Below are positions 5,961 to 58,623 of a DNA stretch of 64,000 bases, one piece after another. Both the position numbers and the translations under genes were made by a program. The stretch spans positions 21,936-85,935 of the forward strand of contig CAJXCL010000001.1 of NCBI GenBank assembly GCA_913051775.1. The letters are read 5' to 3'. Positions within the stretch are counted from its first letter, which is position 1. Every line of letters begins with the position of its first letter. Under the pieces are notes generated by a model that searched no databases, had not been told where the DNA came from, and saw only the letters and a program-made list of their open reading frames with translations. Origin of the DNA: an uncultured Nitrospirota bacterium. GTDB taxonomy: Bacteria > Nitrospinota > Nitrospinia > CAJXCL01.

Positions 5961-6080
5961 GTGAAAGTCTTTAGCTAGTGCAGCCTTCGCAGCTTGCTGC
6001 GGGGCTAGCGAGCGAACTTAAAATGAAATCATACTCTACACTGAAGATTTCCAGTAGCTTGCTACGGGGAGCTTCAATGT
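5961..6080. repeat. Family-A repeat, composite copy (partial short form fused to a long form; A2)
   Basis: 'gtgaaagtctttagctagtgcagccttcgcagcttgctgcgggg' is followed by 'ctagcgagcgaacttaaaatgaaatcatactctacactgaagatttccagtagcttgctacggggagcttcaatg'. It lies in the 860-bp divergent acs/msrP intergenic region. Confidence 0.7.
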
Positions 6081-6178
6081 TAAAAAGTGGATACAAAAGT
6101 TTTTTATACCAGTTCTGTCTTTCCTACGCAAGCAGGGATGACATCAAAAACTGTAGTTGCTGAAGATAAAGTTAATTT

Positions 6179-6232
6179 TGAAAGTGCTTAGCGAGCGCAT
6201 TTTTCACAGCTTTGCTGCTAGGAGCTTCAAAA
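6179..6232. repeat. Family-A repeat, short form (A3)
   Basis: 'gaaagtgcttagcgagcgcatttttcacagctttgctgctaggagcttcaaaag', about 100 nt from A2. Confidence 0.65.
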
Positions 6233-9567: not shown

Positions 9568-10101
9568 TTAATATTCTATGCCTTTTTGTGCCTTGACACC
9601 GGATTTGAAGGGATGCTTTATTTCTTTCATTTCCGTTACGAGATCGGCAATCTCTATGATTTCAGGCGGGGCGTTTCTACCTGTTAATATGACATGCAGA
9701 TCTTGCGGTTTTTTTTTGAGAAAATTCATGACATCATGAACATCAAGATAATTATATCTCAGGGCGATATTAATTTCGTCCAATACAACTATTTTATACT
9801 TTCCCGATAAAATTTTTTCCTTACATAACTCCCAGGTGCGTTGTGCCACCATAGTATCACGTTCTTTATCTTTAGTATTCCATGTAAAACCTTCTCCCAT
9901 CGGTATCAGTTCGAAGTTATCGGAAAACTTTTTTGCGGCATCCAGTTCGCCATAATTCCAACTTCCCTTAATAAACTGGACCATGCAGACTTTATAATCA
10001 TATCCTAGGGCTCGAAAAGCAGTTCCTAACGCCGCGGTGGTTTTCCCTTTCCCGTCACCGGTATTGACTATGATTAGTCCTTTTTTATTTTTTTTATTCA
10101 T
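9568..10101 (-). CDS. cobO: Cob(I)yrinic acid a,c-diamide / cob(I)alamin adenosyltransferase (CobO/BtuR family)
   Basis: 177 aa. 'GLIIVNTGDGKGKTTAALG...VCMVQFIKG...GFTWNTKDKERD...VLDEI...HPFKSGVKAQKGIEY' aligns position-for-position with BtuR/CobA. Confidence 0.9.
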   Translation of the reverse strand: MNKKNKKGLIIVNTGDGKGKTTAALGTAFRALGYDYKVCMVQFIKGSWNYGELDAAKKFSDNFELIPMGEGFTWNTKDKERDTMVAQRTWELCKEKILSGKYKIVVLDEINIALRYNYLDVHDVMNFLKKKPQDLHVILTGRNAPPEIIEIADLVTEMKEIKHPFKSGVKAQKGIEY

Positions 10102-10521
10102 AATCGTACTATTTAATTTTCACAACAAATTTATCACAATTATTACAGACTTTTATACTATAATTTTTAGAGGTATAGAATTTATTAATCCGCGGAACAG
10201 AGAAGGGTCGCGAAATAATGAATATTGATTTATTTTTTTTCGTGCTTTTCGTGGTTGATTATTAAATTTGATTGCAGTTTTGTGGCGATATGCAAAGTCA
10301 AAGTGAACTGGTTCAGATATTATCAAGGTTGAAAAGAACCCCATACCCGGCTACCGAAGTATAAAAGAGATATGCGAATTAATAATGACAGATGTACGAG
10401 AGAAAGGACTGGACTGTTTAAGTGAAGAGTGGATAAGAGGAGATCTGTCTGAATTTAGAATCTTTGAATTGGCAGCTACTCTGAATCGCTTTCGAAGCCT
10501 AAAGGTAAAGCAAATAAGTTT

Positions 10522-10572
10522 GGAAGTGTTTAGCGAGCGCATTTCTAGCAGCTTGCTGCGGGGAGCTTCAAT
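10522..10572. repeat. Family-A repeat, short form (A4)
   Basis: 'gaagtgtttagcgagcgcatttctagcagcttgctgcggggagcttcaat'. Intergenic between cobO and the CDP-alcohol phosphatidyltransferase operon. Confidence 0.7.
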
Positions 10573-10617
10573 TTCAGGCAACCTGCTATCACCCAGATTG
10601 CCTTTTACACCAGTTCT

Positions 10618-11886
10618 TCAAGCTGTCTGAATTCTCGGTTTTCTCCAGAAAGGTGAGAGGATATAGATGAAAATTGGACCGCTCAAAAAGCCGATGGGAT
10701 TAATGAAAACTGCCGGGATGAGCCCGAGGGACACGCTGATGATTATTTCGGTTATCCGCATTGTCGGTAGAATTCGATTAAAATGCTGCCAGAAGATTTT
10801 GAATGAACACATCAGAACGGCTGCAATGACTTCGATAATAATACCAACTGCCGGTGGAACACAAAGGATAGTGGAAGATATCAGCCAGGCCCCGGCCGGA
10901 CTTGGGAGACCGCGAAAAAAGCCTGGTGGTGTGATATCTTTAGTTTTACTGTAATCATACAACCTGATGCAGATGGCTGTGAAATAAATAAGCCCGCCTA
11001 TCATGTTTGCTGCTGTCCACCCTGTCATGGCAGCTACCAGCACGGCTGGAGCCAGGCCGAAACTGACCAGGTCTGCTATGGTATCAAAATCTTTGCCGAA
11101 CTTACTGGTTACGCCAAGGCGTCTGGCCACTGAACCGTCTATCAGATCAAAGCCCATGGCGGCAAAATTTAACAGGACTCCGGTTTTCAACTGGCTCTGG
11201 CTTGCGTACAATATGGCCAATAGCCCGCAGATGAGGTTGCTTAAAGTTAAAAGCTGCGGGATTAGCAGACAGATAGAATGTTTCGCTTTGTCCGGTATAA
11301 CGCGGATAGCAACTGAGATACTCGCAAGCACCAGTGCTGTCCAGATTAGCAAGTTGCCAATGACGTTTAACCGAGGGACGTTGGTCAGAATCGCTATGCC
11401 GAAGAAAAGTTTTGATAGATTCTGAGACAGGGCCTTTTTTTTACCGAACTCGTTGGCGCCTTGTACCTGAGTGCCTCGCAGGAAGGTCGAGGCAATGTCG
11501 AGGGCAAAAAGGATAGCAAGAGCAGTATGGTTAATAGCCGACCAGAATAGGATCAAAGTACTGTAAGTGATCAGTTTGTCTACTGCCGGGTCAAGAACTT
11601 TTCCATGCTGGCTAACCTGGCCTGTTTCCCTGGCCAGAGCGCCATCCACAATGTCAAACATGATGACTATTGTTACCAGCAGCAGGGCAAGCAGACCGAT
11701 TAGCTGCCACCAGATACCGAGCAGTTCTCCCAGTTCGTGCATATAGACCCATAAAAACCAGCCCGGTGCAAAAAATAGAAGACGGGCAACGGTGATCTGG
11801 TTAGGAGAAATTCCTAAATCATACCCGATCCACCTGACAAATTTTCTAAACTGATTACGTGGCATTTGCACAAATAATTCTCTCAT
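10618..11886 (-). CDS. Tandem (duplicated) CDP-alcohol phosphatidyltransferase fusion protein
   Basis: 422 aa polytopic membrane protein carrying two complete D-G-x2-A-R-x8-G-x3-D-x3-D signatures: 'DIVDGALARETGQVSQHGKVLDPAVD' and 'DLIDGSVARRLGVTSKFGKDFDTIAD'. Confidence 0.7.
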   Translation of the reverse strand: MRELFVQMPRNQFRKFVRWIGYDLGISPNQITVARLLFFAPGWFLWVYMHELGELLGIWWQLIGLLALLLVTIVIMFDIVDGALARETGQVSQHGKVLDPAVDKLITYSTLILFWSAINHTALAILFALDIASTFLRGTQVQGANEFGKKKALSQNLSKLFFGIAILTNVPRLNVIGNLLIWTALVLASISVAIRVIPDKAKHSICLLIPQLLTLSNLICGLLAILYASQSQLKTGVLLNFAAMGFDLIDGSVARRLGVTSKFGKDFDTIADLVSFGLAPAVLVAAMTGWTAANMIGGLIYFTAICIRLYDYSKTKDITPPGFFRGLPSPAGAWLISSTILCVPPAVGIIIEVIAAVLMCSFKIFWQHFNRILPTMRITEIIISVSLGLIPAVFINPIGFLSGPIFIYILSPFWRKPRIQTA

Positions 11887-12401
11887 TTTCTTCCTGCTTT
11901 ATAAAGATTGCGAATTTGCAATAATGTTTCATTATACAATCCGGTTTTAAAATCGGGGAAGCTGTAAGGGTATGAATGGAAGTTTCCCTTTTCATACCAG
12001 AGAGTCGGATCAGCATAAATTCCAAGGTAAAGGTAAATTTTTTGCCCGTTGTATTTGGCAGAAGCTAAAACCACTTTGTTTAAATCCATATACCCCGGAT
12101 CCAGGTTCACCTTTCGTTTACTGTTTACAGATAGAAGGTTTTCTACTTCATTAGTTTTTATTTTTGTTTTAGCTAATTCGCCTGGATCAATTAAATTTGT
12201 AAAAGAAACAAATTTTCGTAAAACAGGGCTGCCCATTTCATCTTTATAGTAATTTGAAACAGTAAAATTAAAATCTGGACTCGTGTAATCTATTTCTCCA
12301 AACTTTTCCTTGAGAAAGCAGATTGCCTTTTCTAGTAATTTCGCATCGCTGAATAAAATTCCGATAAAAAACTTTACAGTATCTGGTTCAATTGGTTTCA
12401 T
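11883..12401 (-). CDS. Conserved hypothetical protein (possibly DUF4416-like), translationally coupled to the phosphatidyltransferase
   Basis: 172 aa, soluble. Its stop overlaps the downstream phosphatidyltransferase start by 4 nt. No catalytic motif recognised. Confidence 0.5.
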   Translation of the reverse strand: MKPIEPDTVKFFIGILFSDAKLLEKAICFLKEKFGEIDYTSPDFNFTVSNYYKDEMGSPVLRKFVSFTNLIDPGELAKTKIKTNEVENLLSVNSKRKVNLDPGYMDLNKVVLASAKYNGQKIYLYLGIYADPTLWYEKGNFHSYPYSFPDFKTGLYNETLLQIRNLYKAGRK

Positions 12402-12510
12402 TGTAGTTTAATCTTCGTGACATTCATGAATTCAAGCCTTTGCAGGTACTCTTCACTGGGCGAATCTGCGAAGCCACGCTTAGCGGGGCGAAGCTAAATT
12501 CGTGGTTAAC

Positions 12511-13407
12511 TTATTTTGGCGTCCAGAGTCCCAAAGCCCTTTCTTTTTCGAGATTAATTTTTAATGTTGTCATGGCCTGTTCAGAGAGCTCTTTGTCAAT
12601 CCCGAAAACATCATGAATAGCTTCGTGAAAATTGTTTTTAATATTAAAATTTTGTTTCCCATCAAAAGTTGTTTTGCGCATAAAATTACCGCAGACAAAA
12701 AAAATCCCCTCATCTATTGTTTTGCTTAAATAAAGTCTATGCATGGAATTCCATTTAAAAGAAGCAAGCCAGTGCCGCAAAAATTCATCATCTGTCACAG
12801 GTTTATCCTGAAACCTGTAACGCCATTTAGTTTCAAAATTGTTAAAAGTAAACAAATTATAGCTTTGATTTTTTTGATCGAATTCAAGTTTTACTCCTGC
12901 AAATTTATTATTGATGAGTTGATTTTTTTCAGGATTGATTTCCATTGGTTTTTTCAGGAGATAGCCGGGATCCACCAGATATTTAACAGAACCCAAAACT
13001 ACGATCAGGCAGCAATGGATGTTTTTACCGGCACGCATCTCCGCCATGACAGGATAACAAATAAATTCGCAATAATTCAAAATACTTTGAATGAAAAAAG
13101 TTAAAGAAAAACAGGTGCCGCCTAATTTATAGGAAATATAGTCTTCTATAAGCTCCTCCGGTAGACGGATTTTATTTTCAGAGTCCCAATCATTGTCCAA
13201 TTTTATTATTTTGCTGAGATTTTCATAAGGAAGATTAGAAAAATGAAGTAGGAGTTCCTGCAAAAAAATCGAATCAGGCTTTTTTCGCTTAAGTTTAAAG
13301 AACTCAAGAAAACGTTTCACTCCCTCGTCGTGAGCAGTAAGGTCTAACAAAATTTTTTGGCTATCATCTATCATTAAAAAGTTGCAAAAATTTCTTTTTT
13401 TTCGCAT
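12511..13407 (-). CDS. Arylamine N-acetyltransferase (NAT)-family / transglutaminase-like Cys-protease-fold protein
   Basis: 298 aa. 'NLPYENL' and 'LGGTCFSL' (catalytic Cys), then 'HCCLIVV' (His) and 'DPGYLL' (Asp), matching the NAT Cys-His-Asp triad order. Confidence 0.55.
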
Positions 13408-13448
13408 TATATTATAATAAAGGTTTAATTTTTACTAAGGAAATTTTT

Positions 13449-13766
13449 ATGGCTGTAGATGAACAGAGTTTTGAAGAAAATGTTTTAACCAAAAAGAGAG
13501 AAAAAGTAGAAAAACCACCTCTTTACAGGGTTGTTTTACATAACGATAATTATACAACTATGGAGTTTGTTGTATTGGTACTCCAGAAATTTTTTTATAA
13601 AAACGAAACTGAAGCCAACCATATAATGTTAAATGTGCATAAAAAGGGTAGGGGAATCGCGGGTATTTTTACATTCGAGGTGGCTGAGACAAAATTGAGC
13701 CAGGTTCATTCTTTCGCGAAGAATCAAGACCATCCTTTGAAATGCAGTTTGGAGCCGGATAAATGA
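13449..13766 (+). CDS. clpS: ATP-dependent Clp protease adaptor ClpS
   Basis: 105 aa. '[20 protein letters not shown]...' conserved ClpS core. Overlaps clpA by 4 nt. Confidence 0.9.
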
Positions 13767-19957: not shown

Positions 19958-20106
19958 GGAGAGGCTCGACAACCACAATTCGGCATGGAAAGCCGAATTG
20001 GACGGATTCCGAAGGAAAAACGCCCCAAGGGTGAGGGCAGGGATGGCTGAAATCAAGTGAAGCTTCCGCTCCGGAGAGCTAATAAAAAAATTTGTTCAAA
20101 AAAAAT
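19958..20106 (+). repeat. Family-B ~145-nt structured intergenic element (copy B1; candidate ncRNA or cis-regulatory RNA)
   Basis: 'caaccacaattcgg...aattgga.gg.ttccgaag.aaaa.cgcc.caaggg.tgagg.ca.ggatggc.ga.aatcaa...hairpin...ctaataaaaa..ttgt.caaaaaaaa' is shared with 28843-28987 (about 80% identity). The terminal hairpin shows a compensatory change. Confidence 0.6.
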
Positions 20107-20209
20107 TTATTTTACAAATTAATAGTATAAGAGGTGAAGCTTTTCTAAACCTATTTATATCAGTAGGTAGTTGACTTAACAATTTCATTTTGTTTAAACT
20201 AAACGCATC

Positions 20210-23564: not shown

Positions 23565-23596
23565 AGCATAAAGCGGCAAGTTTCCGTAACAGAATG

Positions 23597-23642
23597 GAGC
23601 TTCCGCTCCAGTGAACAAACAAAAAAACTTGTTCAAAAAAAA
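23597..23642 (+). repeat. Family-B partial copy (3' hairpin plus A-rich tail only; B3)
   Basis: 'ggagcttccgctccagtgaacaaacaaaaaaacttgttcaaaaaaaag' matches the 3' end of B1. Located 70 nt upstream of prpD. Confidence 0.55.
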
Positions 23643-23709
23643 GTTTTCACAGTGTAATAGCAAAGACGATCTTCCTTCTTTAATACATGATTTTGAGGTT
23701 TTTTTTATC

Positions 23710-28842: not shown

Positions 28843-28987
28843 CGAGGCCACCAACCACAATTCGGTAAGGAATGCAAAATTGGATGGTTTCCGAAGAAAA
28901 GCCGCCCAAGGGGTTGAGGCCATGGATGGCCGATAATCAAATGGGCTGCCGCCCAGTCTGCTAATAAAAAGTTGTGCTAAAAAAACA
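28843..28987 (+). repeat. Family-B ~145-nt structured intergenic element (copy B2), 40 nt upstream of tRNA-Gln
   Basis: Aligns with B1 throughout. The hairpin 'tgggctgccgcccag' replaces B1's 'gaagcttccgctcc' (A-T to G-C covariation). Confidence 0.6.
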
Positions 28988-29026: not shown

Positions 29027-29100
29027 TTGGGGGATGGTCTAATGGCAGGACGAGCGGCTCTGACCCGCTTAGTGAAGGTTCGAATCCTTCTCCCCCAGCC
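29027..29100 (+). tRNA. tRNA-Gln (anticodon CUG)
   Basis: 74-nt cloverleaf folded by hand. Acceptor TGGGGGA/TCCCCCA. D-stem GTCT/GGAC. Anticodon stem AGCGG/CCGCT with loop cTCTGac. T-arm GAAGG-TTCGAAT-CCTTC. Discriminator G, encoded CCA. U1-A72 as in bacterial tRNA-Gln. Confidence 0.9.
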
Positions 29101-32307: not shown

Positions 32308-33231
32308 TTAAATAATAAACCTCTTCGCTACTTTTTGACTTTCGTATTCATTGCAATTTTTGCATATTTGCGGAAAATCTTTATCCATATGTCTTTTTCG
32401 GAGCCTTCTCATAGCTAGTCCGTTCCAGATGGAATCCACTGTTTCATTCAGGACGTTCCCGATTTGGAGCTCTCCTTCATAATCCGCGCAGCAGGGAACA
32501 ACTTTTCCGTCCCACAAGACCACCACCTTTCCGTAATCTTTCCCAAAAAGTTCTGGACAGATATCTGTCCTTTGTAATGCAAACTTGTAAAATTGTGTTT
32601 TTTTAGCACAATTTTTTTTAGCAGATTGGACGGTAGCCCCTTTGGTAGTGGCCTCTTGGCTATGCTGTGAACGGATTAATTTAGGTTGAAAACGAACATG
32701 GTCTGCTATGGATTTCCACTTATCATAAAAGGAGTCCATATCTTTTTCTGTTTGTTCTTCAACAACCATTACAATCCCTATTTTAAGGGGGCTGTTTTTC
32801 TCGTTTCTACCTTTTATCAGATTCAAAATATTATTTTCGATTATTTGAAAATCAATACCCCGAATTTTTTGGTATGTGTCCGGGTTTCCATCCACAGAAA
32901 TTCTCAATACACTTAAAGGACTGTTAAGAATTCTGTGGATAGTGTTGTCATCGAGCAATGTTCCGTTGGTATTAAAAACCGTATAACGAATTCCTTTATT
33001 ATGAGCATATTTGATCATATTAAATAAATCTTTGTTCTGCGTTGGTTCACCCCAGTTATGAAGGCAGAGATGCTTCAGCGATTTTCCGCTACCGATTGTT
33101 TTTTGAAAAAGTTCAAAAGACATGAATCCTTTTTTTCTTTTCATTTCATTATTAGTCGGACATATGCGGCAATTCAAATTACATACATTCGTCGTCTCAA
33201 TAGTTAATGATGTGAGTTTATTGATTTTCAT
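32308..33231 (-). CDS. Radical SAM enzyme with C-terminal SPASM-like Cys cluster
   Basis: 307 aa. 'ETTNVCNLNCRIC' CxxxCxxC. C-terminal 'PCCADYEGELQIGNV...CKNCNEY'. Confidence 0.7.
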   Translation of the reverse strand: MKINKLTSLTIETTNVCNLNCRICPTNNEMKRKKGFMSFELFQKTIGSGKSLKHLCLHNWGEPTQNKDLFNMIKYAHNKGIRYTVFNTNGTLLDDNTIHRILNSPLSVLRISVDGNPDTYQKIRGIDFQIIENNILNLIKGRNEKNSPLKIGIVMVVEEQTEKDMDSFYDKWKSIADHVRFQPKLIRSQHSQEATTKGATVQSAKKNCAKKTQFYKFALQRTDICPELFGKDYGKVVVLWDGKVVPCCADYEGELQIGNVLNETVDSIWNGLAMRRLRKRHMDKDFPQICKNCNEYESQKVAKRFII

Positions 33232-36618: not shown

Positions 36619-36638
36619 GAAGAAACCGGGGAAATTTA

Positions 36639-36680
36639 TTGAAGCTCCCTGCAGCAAAGCTGCGAGGAATTTTCAGTAAA
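36639..36680 (-). repeat. Family-A repeat, short form, reverse orientation (A6)
   Basis: Reverse complement 'ctgaaaattcctcgcagctttgctgcagggagcttcaat' matches the A4/A5 3' half. Confidence 0.6.
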
Positions 36681-56091: not shown

Positions 56092-56175
56092 GTGAAAGTG
56101 TTTAGCGAGCGAATTTAAAAAAAATTATACTCTACACTGAAAATTCTCAGTAGCTTGCTACGGGAAGCTTCAATG
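56092..56175. repeat. Family-A repeat, long form (A5), inserted between murD and ftsW inside the dcw cluster
   Basis: 'gtgaaagtgtttagcgagcgaatttaaaaaaaattatactctacactgaaaattctcagtagcttgctacgggaagcttcaatg'. The track-predicted ftsW start (56155) lies inside it. Confidence 0.7.
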
Positions 56176-56196
56176 TGGCTAAAATTTAATAATAGG

Positions 56197-58496: not shown

Positions 58497-58623
58497 CATG
58501 TTATGTCTCTGTACTCAAATTTAAAAAATTGTGTTTTTTTGGCACAATTTATGTTAGTAGACCGGGCGGCAGCTCATTTGGTTGCGCTTCCCTGGCTGTT
58601 CTGTGACAGCAATTATTTGTCAT

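What the first reader, a model, noticed from the sequence alone, without database searches (positions are those of the whole stretch)
10618..13407. Single polypeptide with two complete CDP-alcohol phosphatidyltransferase catalytic signatures, coupled to a conserved hypothetical protein and a NAT-like Cys-His-Asp protein
The 422-aa membrane protein carries the full D-G-x2-A-R-x8-G-x3-D-x3-D motif twice (residues ~78-105 and ~249-276). It is therefore a head-to-tail fusion of two phospholipid head-group transferases such as PgsA/PssA/PIPS types. Such a fusion could channel CDP-DAG to two head groups, or be a bifunctional synthase. The upstream 172-aa protein overlaps it by 4 nt. A NAT-fold protein (catalytic Cys in GGTCFSL) lies immediately upstream on the same strand. 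A family-A repeat fragment sits in the 110-bp gap between the NAT-like gene and the operon.
Basis: seen in the sequence. Interest (0 to 1): 0.55.

Follow-up and report, generated by a model that had tools for sequence, protein, structure and literature searches.

The report
Fused PgsA-like/PssA-like lipid head-group transferase
One membrane protein really does carry two intact, conserved catalytic sites for attaching head groups to phospholipids, apparently a natural fusion of the two branch-point enzymes of bacterial lipid synthesis. It belongs to a large uncharacterised family, and its link to the two upstream genes is a local accident of gene order.

Summary
The core observation holds. ORF 10618-11886 (-) encodes 422 aa with two CDP-alcohol phosphatidyltransferase domains. 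Both D-x2-DG-x2-AR-x8-G-x3-D-x3-D signatures are complete (D78-D103, D247-D272) and invariant in 56 homologues of 52-88% identity.

It is not an assembly artefact: at least 120 cluster representatives share the full-length architecture. They come from MAGs labelled Desulfobulbia, Thermodesulfobacteriota and Nitrospinota.

The N-half is PgsA-like and the C-half PssA-like, including the 8-helix MjPSS-type architecture. The halves share only the motif, so they are distant paralogues, not a recent duplication. Both score below the curated equivalog cut-offs, and each has lost one conserved Arg on helix 4. PGP synthase plus PS synthase is therefore the best guess, not a demonstrated function.

A separate canonical PgsA-PssA tandem family, in which both halves pass the cut-offs, exists in Margulisiibacteriota. 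IMG already annotates it as bifunctional. I found no paper on either family.

The coupling to DUF4416 occurs only in the closest relatives. The conserved pair is NAT-like + DUF4416, found without the tandem gene. The ATGA overlap depends on a window-specific ATG. The repeat fragment claimed for the 109-bp gap was not found.

Verdict: real, moderately interesting, a new variant of a known kind.

The parts
10618..11886 (-). Tandem CDP-alcohol phosphatidyltransferase gene. It encodes 422 aa from ATG 11886; alternative starts are GTG 11871 and ATG 11865, the family consensus start.
   Evidence: ORF. PF01066 117 bits, 2 stretches. At least 120 full-length homologue clusters. AF2 pLDDT 88, pTM 0.83. 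Start ambiguity.
11290..11886 (-). N-terminal half (residues 1-199): amphipathic helix plus 6 TM helices, a PgsA-like domain of a non-canonical subfamily.
   Evidence: TIGR00560 pgsA is the best NCBIfam hit, 58.9 bits, below the 109.1 cut-off. Best PDB sequence hit is SaPgsA 7drj, E 7e-7. Foldseek matches 7drj at prob 1.00. Helix map.
11578..11655 (-). Catalytic signature 1: D78 xx D81 G82 xx A85 R86 x8 G95 xxx D99 xxx D103.
   Evidence: Read from the sequence. All eight residues are invariant in 56 of 56 sequences.
10621..11280 (-). C-terminal half (residues 203-422): a PssA-like domain with horizontal helix, 8 helices and two short cytoplasmic beta-strands, as in M. jannaschii PSS.
   Evidence: TIGR00473 pssA 92.4 bits alone, cut-off 107. 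PDB 7b1k/7pow E 5e-13. Foldseek top hits 7pow/7b1k, TMt 0.74-0.76. Strands 323-325 and 365-367 in the model. MjPSS architecture from PMC8633023.
11071..11148 (-). Catalytic signature 2: D247 xx D250 G251 xx A254 R255 x8 G264 xxx D268 xxx D272.
   Evidence: Read from the sequence. All eight residues are invariant in 56 of 56 sequences.
11883..12401 (-). DUF4416 gene (172 aa) immediately upstream. It is a neighbour only in this lineage and is not part of the enzyme.
12511..13407 (-). NAT-like gene (298 aa; Cys99-His131-Asp146), the conserved partner of DUF4416.
   Evidence: PF00797 E 4e-9. Alignment to 3lnb. Positions. The pair is conserved in L010, L011 and L012.
12402..12510 (.). The 109-bp spacer between the NAT-like and DUF4416 genes. 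No repeat fragment or Rfam family was detectable.
10512..10574 (.). Copy of an intergenic repeat (core AGCAGCTTGCTGCGGGGAGCTTCAAT) downstream of the tandem gene.
   Evidence: Other copies lie at 5962-6080, 6177-6221 and 56096-56176.

Best explanation
The gene encodes a single-chain, two-active-site CDP-diacylglycerol:alcohol phosphatidyltransferase.

SHOWN:
- Two distantly related CDP-AP domains are joined by a linker of about 5 residues.
- The N-domain is PgsA-like with 6 TM helices. The C-domain is PssA-like with the 8-helix MjPSS-type architecture.
- Both metal/CDP-binding signatures are intact and under strong conservation.
- The helix count and the distribution of K/R residues fit an N-in/C-in topology, which would put both active sites on the cytoplasmic face.

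INFERRED:
- Every solved CDP-AP is a homodimer through helices 3/4. In MjPSS the N-terminal horizontal helix of one protomer packs on helices 4 and 6 of the other.
- The two halves therefore most likely fold onto each other as a covalent pseudo-heterodimer that mimics the canonical dimer.
- Each half independently uses membrane CDP-DAG.

BEST GUESS FOR ACCEPTORS:
- The N-half uses sn-glycerol-3-phosphate and makes phosphatidylglycerophosphate.
- The C-half uses L-serine and makes phosphatidylserine, the precursor of PE.
- One polypeptide would then fix a 1:1 ratio of the enzymes that commit CDP-DAG to the anionic and the zwitterionic lipid branches.

The gene behaves as a stand-alone housekeeping-type gene. 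Its position behind DUF4416 in this window reflects a lineage-specific relocation or insertion.
For: - Domain content and motifs.
- Invariance of all 16 signature residues, plus N29 (SaPgsA Asn5, a CDP ligand), K104 (= K83), R137 (= R118), K149 and K151 (= K137) in the N-half. In the C-half, D268, T/S269, D272 and Y312 correspond to the MjPSS Ser1 ligands D62, S63, D66 and F105, and R308 corresponds to the essential R101 (residue roles from PMC8640168 and PMC8633023).
- Structure: AF2 pLDDT 88 and whole-chain pTM 0.83. The best PDB folds are PSS 7pow/7b1k, then PgsA 7drj.
- The halves share only the 27-residue motif (12 of 27 identical), so they are old paralogues.
- Architecture precedent: canonical tandem proteins whose N-halves pass the pgsA cut-off and whose C-halves pass the pssA cut-off. 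They are widespread in Margulisiibacteriota.
- Topology: K/R-rich N-terminus, C-terminus and the 316-328 and 360-377 loops.
- Not an artefact: at least 120 full-length clusters, 119 of 120 with both motifs.
- Helix-4 substitutions tend to go together across tandem families: N-half Leu with C-half Asp, and N-half Arg with C-half Arg. This would be expected if the two helices 4 face each other. There are exceptions, and the families are not phylogenetically independent.
Against: - Neither half alone reaches its NCBIfam equivalog cut-off: pgsA 58.9 of 109.1, pssA 92.4 of 107.
- The N-half lacks the Arg of the PgsA 'ARE' element. SaPgsA R110 is a ligand of the G3P phosphate; here it is Leu in 54 of 56 sequences.
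- The C-half has Asp where PSS has R104.
- The N-half profile scores only 27-42 bits on canonical PgsA halves, against 105-133 bits on a stand-alone non-canonical subfamily of unknown function.
- No psd or other lipid gene is a conserved neighbour.
- I could not test whether these genomes also carry ordinary pgsA and pssA.
- The pseudo-dimer packing could not be inspected, because model coordinates are not exposed. There is no biochemical evidence.
Confidence: 0.5

Rival explanations
1. Both halves are active CDP-APs, but at least one uses a different acceptor from G3P or serine. Possibilities are another phosphorylated or anionic alcohol, PG (making a eukaryote-type cardiolipin synthase), or a second step on the product of the other half. 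The protein would then make a head group that canonical PgsA and PssA do not make.
For: - Both halves fall below the equivalog cut-offs.
- Both carry invariant, family-specific substitutions in acceptor-side helix 4: L129-D130-x2-S133-T134 in the N-half and R308-L-Y-D311-Y312 in the C-half.
- The N-half belongs to a distinct subfamily that also exists as stand-alone proteins and is far from canonical PgsA.
- AIPS, PIPS and ClsA models also hit the N-half.
Against: - pgsA and pssA remain the best-scoring models for the respective halves.
- Three of the four basic G3P-phosphate ligands are kept. The four Ser1 ligands are kept or conservatively replaced.
- MjPSS R104E retains about 50% activity, and SaPgsA R110A only lowers activity.
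Confidence: 0.27
2. Only one half is catalytic. The other is a structural or regulatory partner that supplies the obligatory dimer interface, making the protein a pseudo-enzyme fusion.
For: - CDP-APs need a dimer partner.
- Each half lacks one conserved Arg.
- Several related tandem representatives show only one regex-complete motif, so degeneration of one site does occur in the wider group.
Against: - In this family all eight signature residues of both halves are invariant in 56 of 56 sequences, against about 20% invariant columns overall. CDP-side ligands (N29, N217) are invariant too.
- Only 1 of 120 sequences has a motif substitution (P0093, D103N).
Confidence: 0.15
3. The NAT-like, DUF4416 and tandem genes form one functional operon that builds and modifies a lipid head group.
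For: - The three genes lie on the same strand, with at most 20 nt (or a 4-nt overlap) between DUF4416 and the tandem gene.
- The arrangement is kept in L001 and L002.
Against: - The adjacency is limited to relatives of 87% identity or more. Eight other family members have unrelated neighbours.
- NAT+DUF4416 occurs as a pair without any tandem gene in L010-L012.
- Syntenic L010 lacks the gene at this site, while a 73% homologue sits on another contig of the same sample with the same coverage.
- The tandem gene's GC3 of 0.515 is the highest of 48 ORFs, whereas its neighbours have 0.30-0.33.
Confidence: 0.05
4. The ORF is an artefact: two adjacent genes merged by a frameshift or assembly error.
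For: None found. A few 90-204 aa fragments exist among the hits. They could be contig-end fragments or split genes.
Against: The same continuous 402-459 aa architecture occurs in at least 120 independent cluster representatives from different assemblies and sources. The window ORF has no internal stop.
Confidence: 0.01

Closest known systems
Canonical PgsA-PssA tandem proteins of Candidatus Margulisiibacteriota/Marinamargulisbacteria (about 440-456 aa; e.g. P0185, P0178, P0176, P0201). IMG annotates them automatically as 'CDP-DAG--glycerol-3-phosphate 3-phosphatidyltransferase/CDP-DAG--serine O-phosphatidyltransferase'.
   Same: They have the same domain order, with the PgsA-like domain N-terminal and the PssA-like domain C-terminal. 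Both carry two complete signatures in a single polypeptide.
   Different: - Their halves pass both curated equivalog cut-offs, keep ARE/R110 and RLxRF/R104, and have a linker about 14 residues longer.
- The window family's halves are closer to stand-alone proteins (105-180 bits) than to the halves of these proteins (27-42 bits for N, about 98 for C). The fusions are therefore probably independent events.
- I found no experimental work on either family.
Staphylococcus aureus PgsA (PDB 7drj/7drk), a phosphatidylglycerophosphate synthase
   Same: It is the best solved relative of the N-half (E 7e-7). It shares the 6-TM fold, the signature, the CDP ligand Asn, and K83, R118, K135 and K137.
   Different: It is a homodimer of 192-aa chains. 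R110-E111 becomes L129-D130 and T138 becomes A152 in the window protein. The pgsA HMM score is about half the cut-off.
Methanocaldococcus jannaschii phosphatidylserine synthase (PDB 7b1k/7pow)
   Same: It is the best solved relative of the C-half (E 5e-13; Foldseek TMt about 0.75). It shares the 8 helices, the two short cytoplasmic strands, the GLPxPAGA element, the Ser1 ligands and R101.
   Different: It is a homodimer. R104 becomes D311, F105 becomes Y312 and S63 becomes T269 in the window protein. The C-half alone scores 92.4 bits, below the pssA cut-off of 107.
Archaeoglobus fulgidus IPCT-DIPPS (PDB 4mnd), a bifunctional fusion that includes a CDP-AP domain
   Same: It is a precedent for a CDP-AP fused to another enzyme of the same pathway within one chain.
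   Different: Its partner is a soluble cytidylyltransferase, not a second membrane CDP-AP, and it still homodimerises.

Membership tests
CDP-alcohol phosphatidyltransferase superfamily (Pfam PF01066) | HMM score above the gathering threshold | tested here: met
   117.1 bits against 22, with two stretches.
CDP-alcohol phosphatidyltransferase superfamily (Pfam PF01066) | Signature D1xxD2G1xxAR...G2xxxD3xxxD4 on helices 2-3 | tested here: met
   Present twice (D78-D103 and D247-D272) and invariant in 56 of 56 sequences.
CDP-alcohol phosphatidyltransferase superfamily (Pfam PF01066) | Polytopic 6-TM core fold | tested here: met
   AF2 model pLDDT 88. Foldseek prob 1.00 to PSS, PgsA and PIPS structures.
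CDP-alcohol phosphatidyltransferase superfamily (Pfam PF01066) | Dimer through helices 3/4, here expected to be intramolecular | not testable with these tools
   Only indirect support: whole-chain pTM 0.83 and a linker of about 5 residues, plus the dimer descriptions in the literature.
PgsA (NCBIfam TIGR00560 equivalog), applied to the N-half | HMM score of at least 109.1 bits | tested here: not met
   58.9 bits for residues 1-191 alone and 80.1 for the whole protein.
PgsA (NCBIfam TIGR00560 equivalog), applied to the N-half | Basic ligands of the G3P phosphate (SaPgsA K83, R110, R118, K137) | tested here: inconclusive
   K104, R137 and K151 are conserved, but R110 is Leu129 in 54 of 56 sequences.
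PgsA (NCBIfam TIGR00560 equivalog), applied to the N-half | PGP synthase activity | not testable with these tools
   Needs an enzyme assay or complementation.
PssA, CDP-AP type (NCBIfam TIGR00473 equivalog), applied to the C-half | HMM score of at least 107 bits | tested here: not met
   The C-half alone scores 92.4 bits. The whole protein reaches 107.4 only by summing two stretches.
PssA, CDP-AP type (NCBIfam TIGR00473 equivalog), applied to the C-half | Ser1-coordinating residues (MjPSS D62, S63, D66, F105) and the essential R101 | tested here: met
   D268, T269 (52 Thr, 4 Ser), D272, Y312 and R308. All are invariant or conservative replacements.
PssA, CDP-AP type (NCBIfam TIGR00473 equivalog), applied to the C-half | Second conserved Arg of the chloride network (MjPSS R104) | tested here: not met
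   Asp311 is invariant. R104E in MjPSS keeps about 50% activity.
PssA, CDP-AP type (NCBIfam TIGR00473 equivalog), applied to the C-half | Eight-helix architecture with two short cytoplasmic beta-strands | tested here: met
   Model helices 202-409 with strands 323-325 and 365-367, compared with the MjPSS description.
Margulisiibacteriota-type canonical PgsA-PssA tandem family | Both halves are canonical (pass both equivalogs) and the proteins are each other's nearest relatives | tested here: not met
   The window protein fails both cut-offs. Half-profiles score higher on stand-alone proteins than on the halves of this family.
Arylamine N-acetyltransferase (Pfam PF00797), applied to the neighbouring ORF 12511-13407 | HMM above threshold and a Cys-His-Asp triad | tested here: met
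   36.9 bits against 22.8. Cys99, His131 and Asp146 align with 3lnb. The substrate is unknown.

The most novel reading that the evidence does not exclude
The protein is an obligate intramolecular heterodimer whose two active sites have co-evolved: paired loss of the helix-4 arginines at the predicted interface (N-half R to L, C-half R to D). It makes something canonical PgsA and PssA do not. The two sites might act cooperatively or sequentially on one acceptor to give a bis-phosphatidyl or otherwise unusual head group, or one site might gate the other allosterically and so hard-wire the anionic/zwitterionic lipid ratio. It would be the first natural CDP-AP heterodimer, and a new lipid-synthesis activity in uncultivated Desulfobulbia/Nitrospinota-like bacteria.
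Probability: 0.12. Interest if true: 0.75.

Novelty: new variant of a known kind. Interest (0 to 1): 0.42.

Why it matters
CDP-DAG is the branch point of bacterial phospholipid synthesis. PgsA commits it to PG and cardiolipin, and PssA commits it to PS and PE. How cells balance the two branches is a long-standing question.

Every CDP-alcohol phosphatidyltransferase solved so far is a homodimer. A natural single chain that carries one active site of each branch would be a covalent heterodimer with a fixed 1:1 stoichiometry. That makes it a ready-made system for asking whether the protomers of these enzymes communicate.

It would also be an attractive, asymmetric target for structural work. The family is large (hundreds of sequences) and entirely uncharacterised. 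Its non-canonical acceptor-side residues leave room for a new head-group specificity.

For annotation, it shows that 'phosphatidylserine synthase' labels on these proteins describe only half of the protein, and not securely.

Tried and rejected
- Frameshift or merged-gene artefact: rejected, because the architecture recurs in at least 120 independent clusters.
- Recent internal duplication: rejected, because the halves share only the 27-residue motif.
- Conserved operon with DUF4416 and the NAT-like gene: rejected by context comparison of L001-L006, L008-L015.
- Repeat fragment in the 109-bp gap: not found by blastn-short, by Smith-Waterman with shuffles, or by a sliding scan of the whole window.
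- RNA element in or around the gap: no Rfam hit. The only match with E below 1 is a meaningless snoRNA hit inside the NAT ORF.
- Promoter and terminator scan of 10100-13600: no more sites than in shuffles, so uninformative.
- Literature: no paper mentions DUF4416, tandem or two-domain CDP-APs, PgsA-PssA fusions or CDP-AP heterodimers. The Lipocone paper was irrelevant.
- Search for split N-like and C-like gene pairs: a metagenome scan with the stand-alone N-like protein P0177 returned only distant, ordinary single-domain CDP-APs.
- L007 looked like a half-gene, but it is interrupted by masked N runs.
- Taxonomy of the other tandem families: the cluster look-ups gave almost no names.
- AFDB fold search for named tandem proteins: the library was not available.
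- Second CDP-AP gene (ordinary pgsA or pssA) in the window: none in 64 kb. The rest of the genome could not be searched.
Full report
WHAT IS THERE

The minus-strand ORF 10618-11886 encodes a 422-aa polytopic membrane protein. Pfam finds CDP-OH_P_transf (PF01066) at 117 bits with two matched stretches. Reading the translation gives two complete signatures:
- D78-x2-D81-G-x2-A-R-x8-G95-x3-D99-x3-D103
- D247-x2-D250-G-x2-A-R-x8-G264-x3-D268-x3-D272

No other ORF in the 64-kb window carries this motif.

The upstream ORF 11883-12401 is DUF4416 (PF14385, E 1e-52). The next ORF, 12511-13407, is a weak but significant arylamine N-acetyltransferase-family member (PF00797, E 4e-9). Its Cys99, His131 and Asp146 align with the catalytic region of B. 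anthracis NAT 3lnb.

The wider context is housekeeping. On one side lie GlmM, Acs, MsrP/Q-like genes, an MBL hydrolase and CobO. On the other lie ClpS, ClpA, Aat, HemB and a radical-SAM/SPASM gene.

IS IT REAL?

- A search of the 5.8-billion-protein collection returned 549 hits. The best 120 cluster representatives are all 402-459 aa, cover at least 93% of the query, and are 53-100% identical.
- 119 of the 120 contain both motifs. The exception, P0093, has D103N.
- In a 56-sequence alignment (52-88% identity to the window protein, 60% mean column identity), all 16 signature residues are invariant. So are the CDP-side Asn residues N29 and N217.
There is no degenerate Asp and no merged-gene error.
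- Named sources are MAGs labelled Desulfobulbaceae, Desulfobulbia, Desulfobacteraceae and Thermodesulfobacteriota. The closest relatives (87-89% identity) are two MAGs labelled Nitrospinota.

WHAT THE HALVES ARE

The halves share only the motif, 12 of 27 residues identical. They are old paralogues, not a recent duplication.

N-half (residues 1-199):
- Its best NCBIfam model is pgsA TIGR00560 at 58.9 bits, below the cut-off of 109.1. Archaetidylinositol-phosphate synthase, ClsA and PIPS models follow.
- Its best solved relative is S. aureus PgsA 7drj, E 7e-7.

C-half (residues 203-422):
- Its best NCBIfam model is pssA TIGR00473 at 92.4 bits alone, below the cut-off of 107.
- Its best solved relative is M. 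jannaschii PSS 7b1k/7pow, E 5e-13.

Structure:
- An AF2 model built on the family alignment is confident: pLDDT 88, whole-chain pTM 0.83.
- Foldseek ranks PSS first (TMt about 0.75) and PgsA second.
- The model has an N-terminal amphipathic helix plus six helices. A linker of about 5 residues (197-201) follows, then a helix 202-229 and seven more helices with two short strands (323-325 and 365-367).
- That second part is the unusual 8-helix, beta-hairpin architecture described for MjPSS.
- K/R residues cluster at the N-terminus, the C-terminus and the 316-328 and 360-377 loops. This fits an N-in/C-in topology. With six helices in the first half, both active sites would face the cytoplasm (inference).

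RESIDUE-LEVEL COMPARISON

| Reference residue | Role | Window protein |
|---|---|---|
| SaPgsA K83 | G3P-phosphate ligand | K104, invariant |
| SaPgsA R118 | G3P-phosphate ligand | R137, invariant |
| SaPgsA K137 | G3P-phosphate ligand | K151, 55 of 56 |
| SaPgsA K135 | conserved Lys of the GKxKT element | K149, invariant |
| SaPgsA R110-E111 | R110 is a G3P-phosphate ligand (the 'ARE' element) | L129-D130 (Leu in 54 of 56; Asp invariant) |
| SaPgsA T138 | H-bond to PGP | A152 |
| MjPSS D62, S63, D66, F105 | Ser1 ligands | D268, T269, D272, Y312 |
| MjPSS R101 | essential | R308, invariant |
| MjPSS R104 | chloride network | D311, invariant |

R104E in MjPSS keeps about 50% activity, and R110A in SaPgsA only lowers activity. 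The substitutions therefore weaken the PGP/PS assignment but do not exclude it.

Both substitutions sit on helix 4, the helix that forms the dimer interface in every solved CDP-AP.

Across related tandem families the two positions tend to change together. N-half Leu goes with C-half Asp, and N-half Arg goes with C-half Arg, with exceptions. This is suggestive of contact, but the families are not phylogenetically independent.

HOW COMMON IS THE ARCHITECTURE?

An exhaustive profile search of 1.84 billion representatives found 35 clusters (50% identity) with E of 1e-30 or better. Among the best 150 there are dozens of 360-510-aa proteins with two complete motifs.

One group of about 440-456 aa is fully canonical. 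P0178, P0183, P0185, P0176 and P0201 pass both the pgsA and the pssA equivalog cut-offs. Their homologues are named Candidatus Margulisiibacteriota or Marinamargulisbacteria, and IMG labels them with both enzyme names.

Half-specific profiles of the window family gave these scores:

| Profile | Target | Bits |
|---|---|---|
| N-half | stand-alone N-like proteins (P0177, P0241, P0295) | 105-133 |
| N-half | Margulis-type N-halves | 27-42 |
| C-half | stand-alone C-like proteins (P0165, P0175) | 141-180 |
| C-half | Margulis-type C-halves | about 98 |

The stand-alone N-like proteins share the L-D-x2-S-T element. The two tandem families are therefore probably independent fusions.

The window's N-half belongs to a distinct PgsA-like subfamily of unknown specificity. 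Its stand-alone members also fall below the pgsA cut-off.

I found no publication on any of this.

THE CLAIMED COUPLING

- tblastn of the window's neighbours against related loci shows DUF4416 and the NAT-like gene next to the tandem gene only in L001 and L002.
- Other family members sit among unrelated genes, with no psd or other lipid gene recurring (L003-L006, L008, L009, L014, L015).
- Conversely, NAT-like + DUF4416 is an adjacent or overlapping pair in distant genomes that lack the tandem gene at that site (L010, L011, L012).
- L010 is syntenic with the window (HemB-Aat-ClpA-ClpS-...-NAT-DUF4416-...-CobO) but has three small unknown genes where the window has the tandem gene.
- A 73%-identical tandem homologue lies on another contig of the same sample, with near-identical coverage (10.79 against 10.76) and GC (0.376 against 0.370). 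I infer that the two contigs come from one genome.
- The tandem gene has the highest GC3 of 48 ORFs in the window: 0.515 against a mean of 0.368, sd 0.041. DUF4416 and the NAT-like gene have 0.295 and 0.334.
- The same excess is seen in L001, L002 and L008.

Together these results indicate a compositionally distinct gene that was relocated or inserted behind DUF4416 in this lineage. They do not indicate a conserved module.

The ATGA overlap depends on an ATG (11886) that L001 and L002 lack, since they read ATA there. The family consensus start corresponds to Met8.

The claimed repeat fragment in the gap (12402-12510) could not be found. A copy of the window's intergenic repeat lies at 10512-10574 instead. 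No Rfam family matches the region.

MECHANISM

Shown:
- two intact, conserved CDP-AP catalytic centres in one chain;
- a PgsA-like domain and a PssA-like domain;
- a short linker and a confident whole-chain model.

Inferred from established structural knowledge:
- Every solved CDP-AP is a homodimer through helices 3/4.
- In MjPSS the N-terminal horizontal helix of one protomer contacts helices 4 and 6 of the other.
- A linker of about 5 residues from helix 6 of the N-half to the horizontal helix of the C-half is what a covalently closed dimer would need.
- The protein is therefore most likely an intramolecular pseudo-heterodimer.

Best guess: the N-site makes PGP from G3P and the C-site makes PS from serine, both from CDP-DAG. 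This would tie the two branch-point activities together at 1:1.

Confidence in this full statement is about 0.5. The main rival, at about 0.27, keeps two active sites but changes one or both acceptors. A half-dead pseudo-enzyme is at about 0.15, an operon-level function with NAT and DUF4416 at about 0.05, and an artefact at about 0.01 or less.

VERDICT

The core observation is correct and robust. The 'coupled' part and the repeat part of the finding do not hold.

The object is a member of a large, uncharacterised family. Public pipelines label these proteins generically or, misleadingly, as PssA. The architecture has a canonical counterpart in another phylum.

I rate it a new variant of a known kind, with interest about 0.4. 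It is a good target for lipid enzymologists but not a categorical novelty.

Noticed in passing
window 11883-13407 (-); L010 5173-6537, L011 5154-6522, L012 5033-6531: The NAT-like (PF00797) and DUF4416 genes form a conserved adjacent or overlapping pair in distant genomes, including ones labelled Calditrichota or KSB1. DUF4416 is very conserved (about 60% identity across these) and has no literature. In L011-L013, DUF4416 lies beside central carbon-metabolism genes: glycerate kinase, pyruvate kinase and enolase in L012, pyruvate kinase and enolase in L013, and PPDK in L011. L013 has no NAT-like gene.
   Followed up: partly
[not shown]
   Followed up: partly
window 10618-11886: The tandem gene is a compositional outlier: GC3 0.515 against a window mean of 0.368, sd 0.041, the highest of 48 ORFs. 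The same holds in the low-GC relatives L001, L002 and L008. This fits a foreign origin (its nearest outside homologues come from MAGs labelled Desulfobulbaceae) or gene-specific codon bias.
   Followed up: partly
window 11865-11886: The start codon is ambiguous. ATG 11886, which creates the ATGA overlap, is ATA in L001 and L002. GTG 11871 and ATG 11865 (Met8, the family consensus start) are alternatives.
   Followed up: yes
window 5962-6080, 6177-6221, 10512-10574, 36638-36657, 56096-56176: A short intergenic repeat family with the palindromic core AGCAGCTTGCTGCGGGGAGCTTCAAT, possibly a REP-like or terminator element. One copy lies just downstream of the tandem gene.
   Followed up: partly
window 19970-20108 vs 28852-28914 and 23595-23645; 32580-32682 vs 58516-58618: Further two-copy direct repeats of 51-103 nt at 74-84% identity, of unknown nature.
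   Followed up: no
window 29028-29098 (+): A tRNA gene is the only Rfam match in the window that reaches its gathering score.
   Followed up: no
proteins P0177, P0241, P0295 (N-like) and P0165, P0175 (C-like): Stand-alone proteins that share the window family's non-canonical features: the L-D-x2-S-T helix 4 in the N-like ones, and the TP-x-GFF-x-G-x-PSPAGA loop in the C-like ones. They may be split versions of the heterodimer. Their gene neighbourhoods could not be retrieved.
   Followed up: partly
protein P0222: A dinoflagellate (Karlodinium veneficum) transcript encodes a 406-aa tandem protein with two nearly identical PssA-like motifs. This is a separate, recent-looking internal duplication of a CDP-AP in a eukaryote.
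   Followed up: no
window 12402-12510: The NAT-DUF4416 spacer is 109 bp here, whereas the two genes overlap or nearly abut in other genomes. On the transcript strand it folds into stem-loops (MFE -23.9 kcal/mol). This was not compared with shuffles.
   Followed up: no
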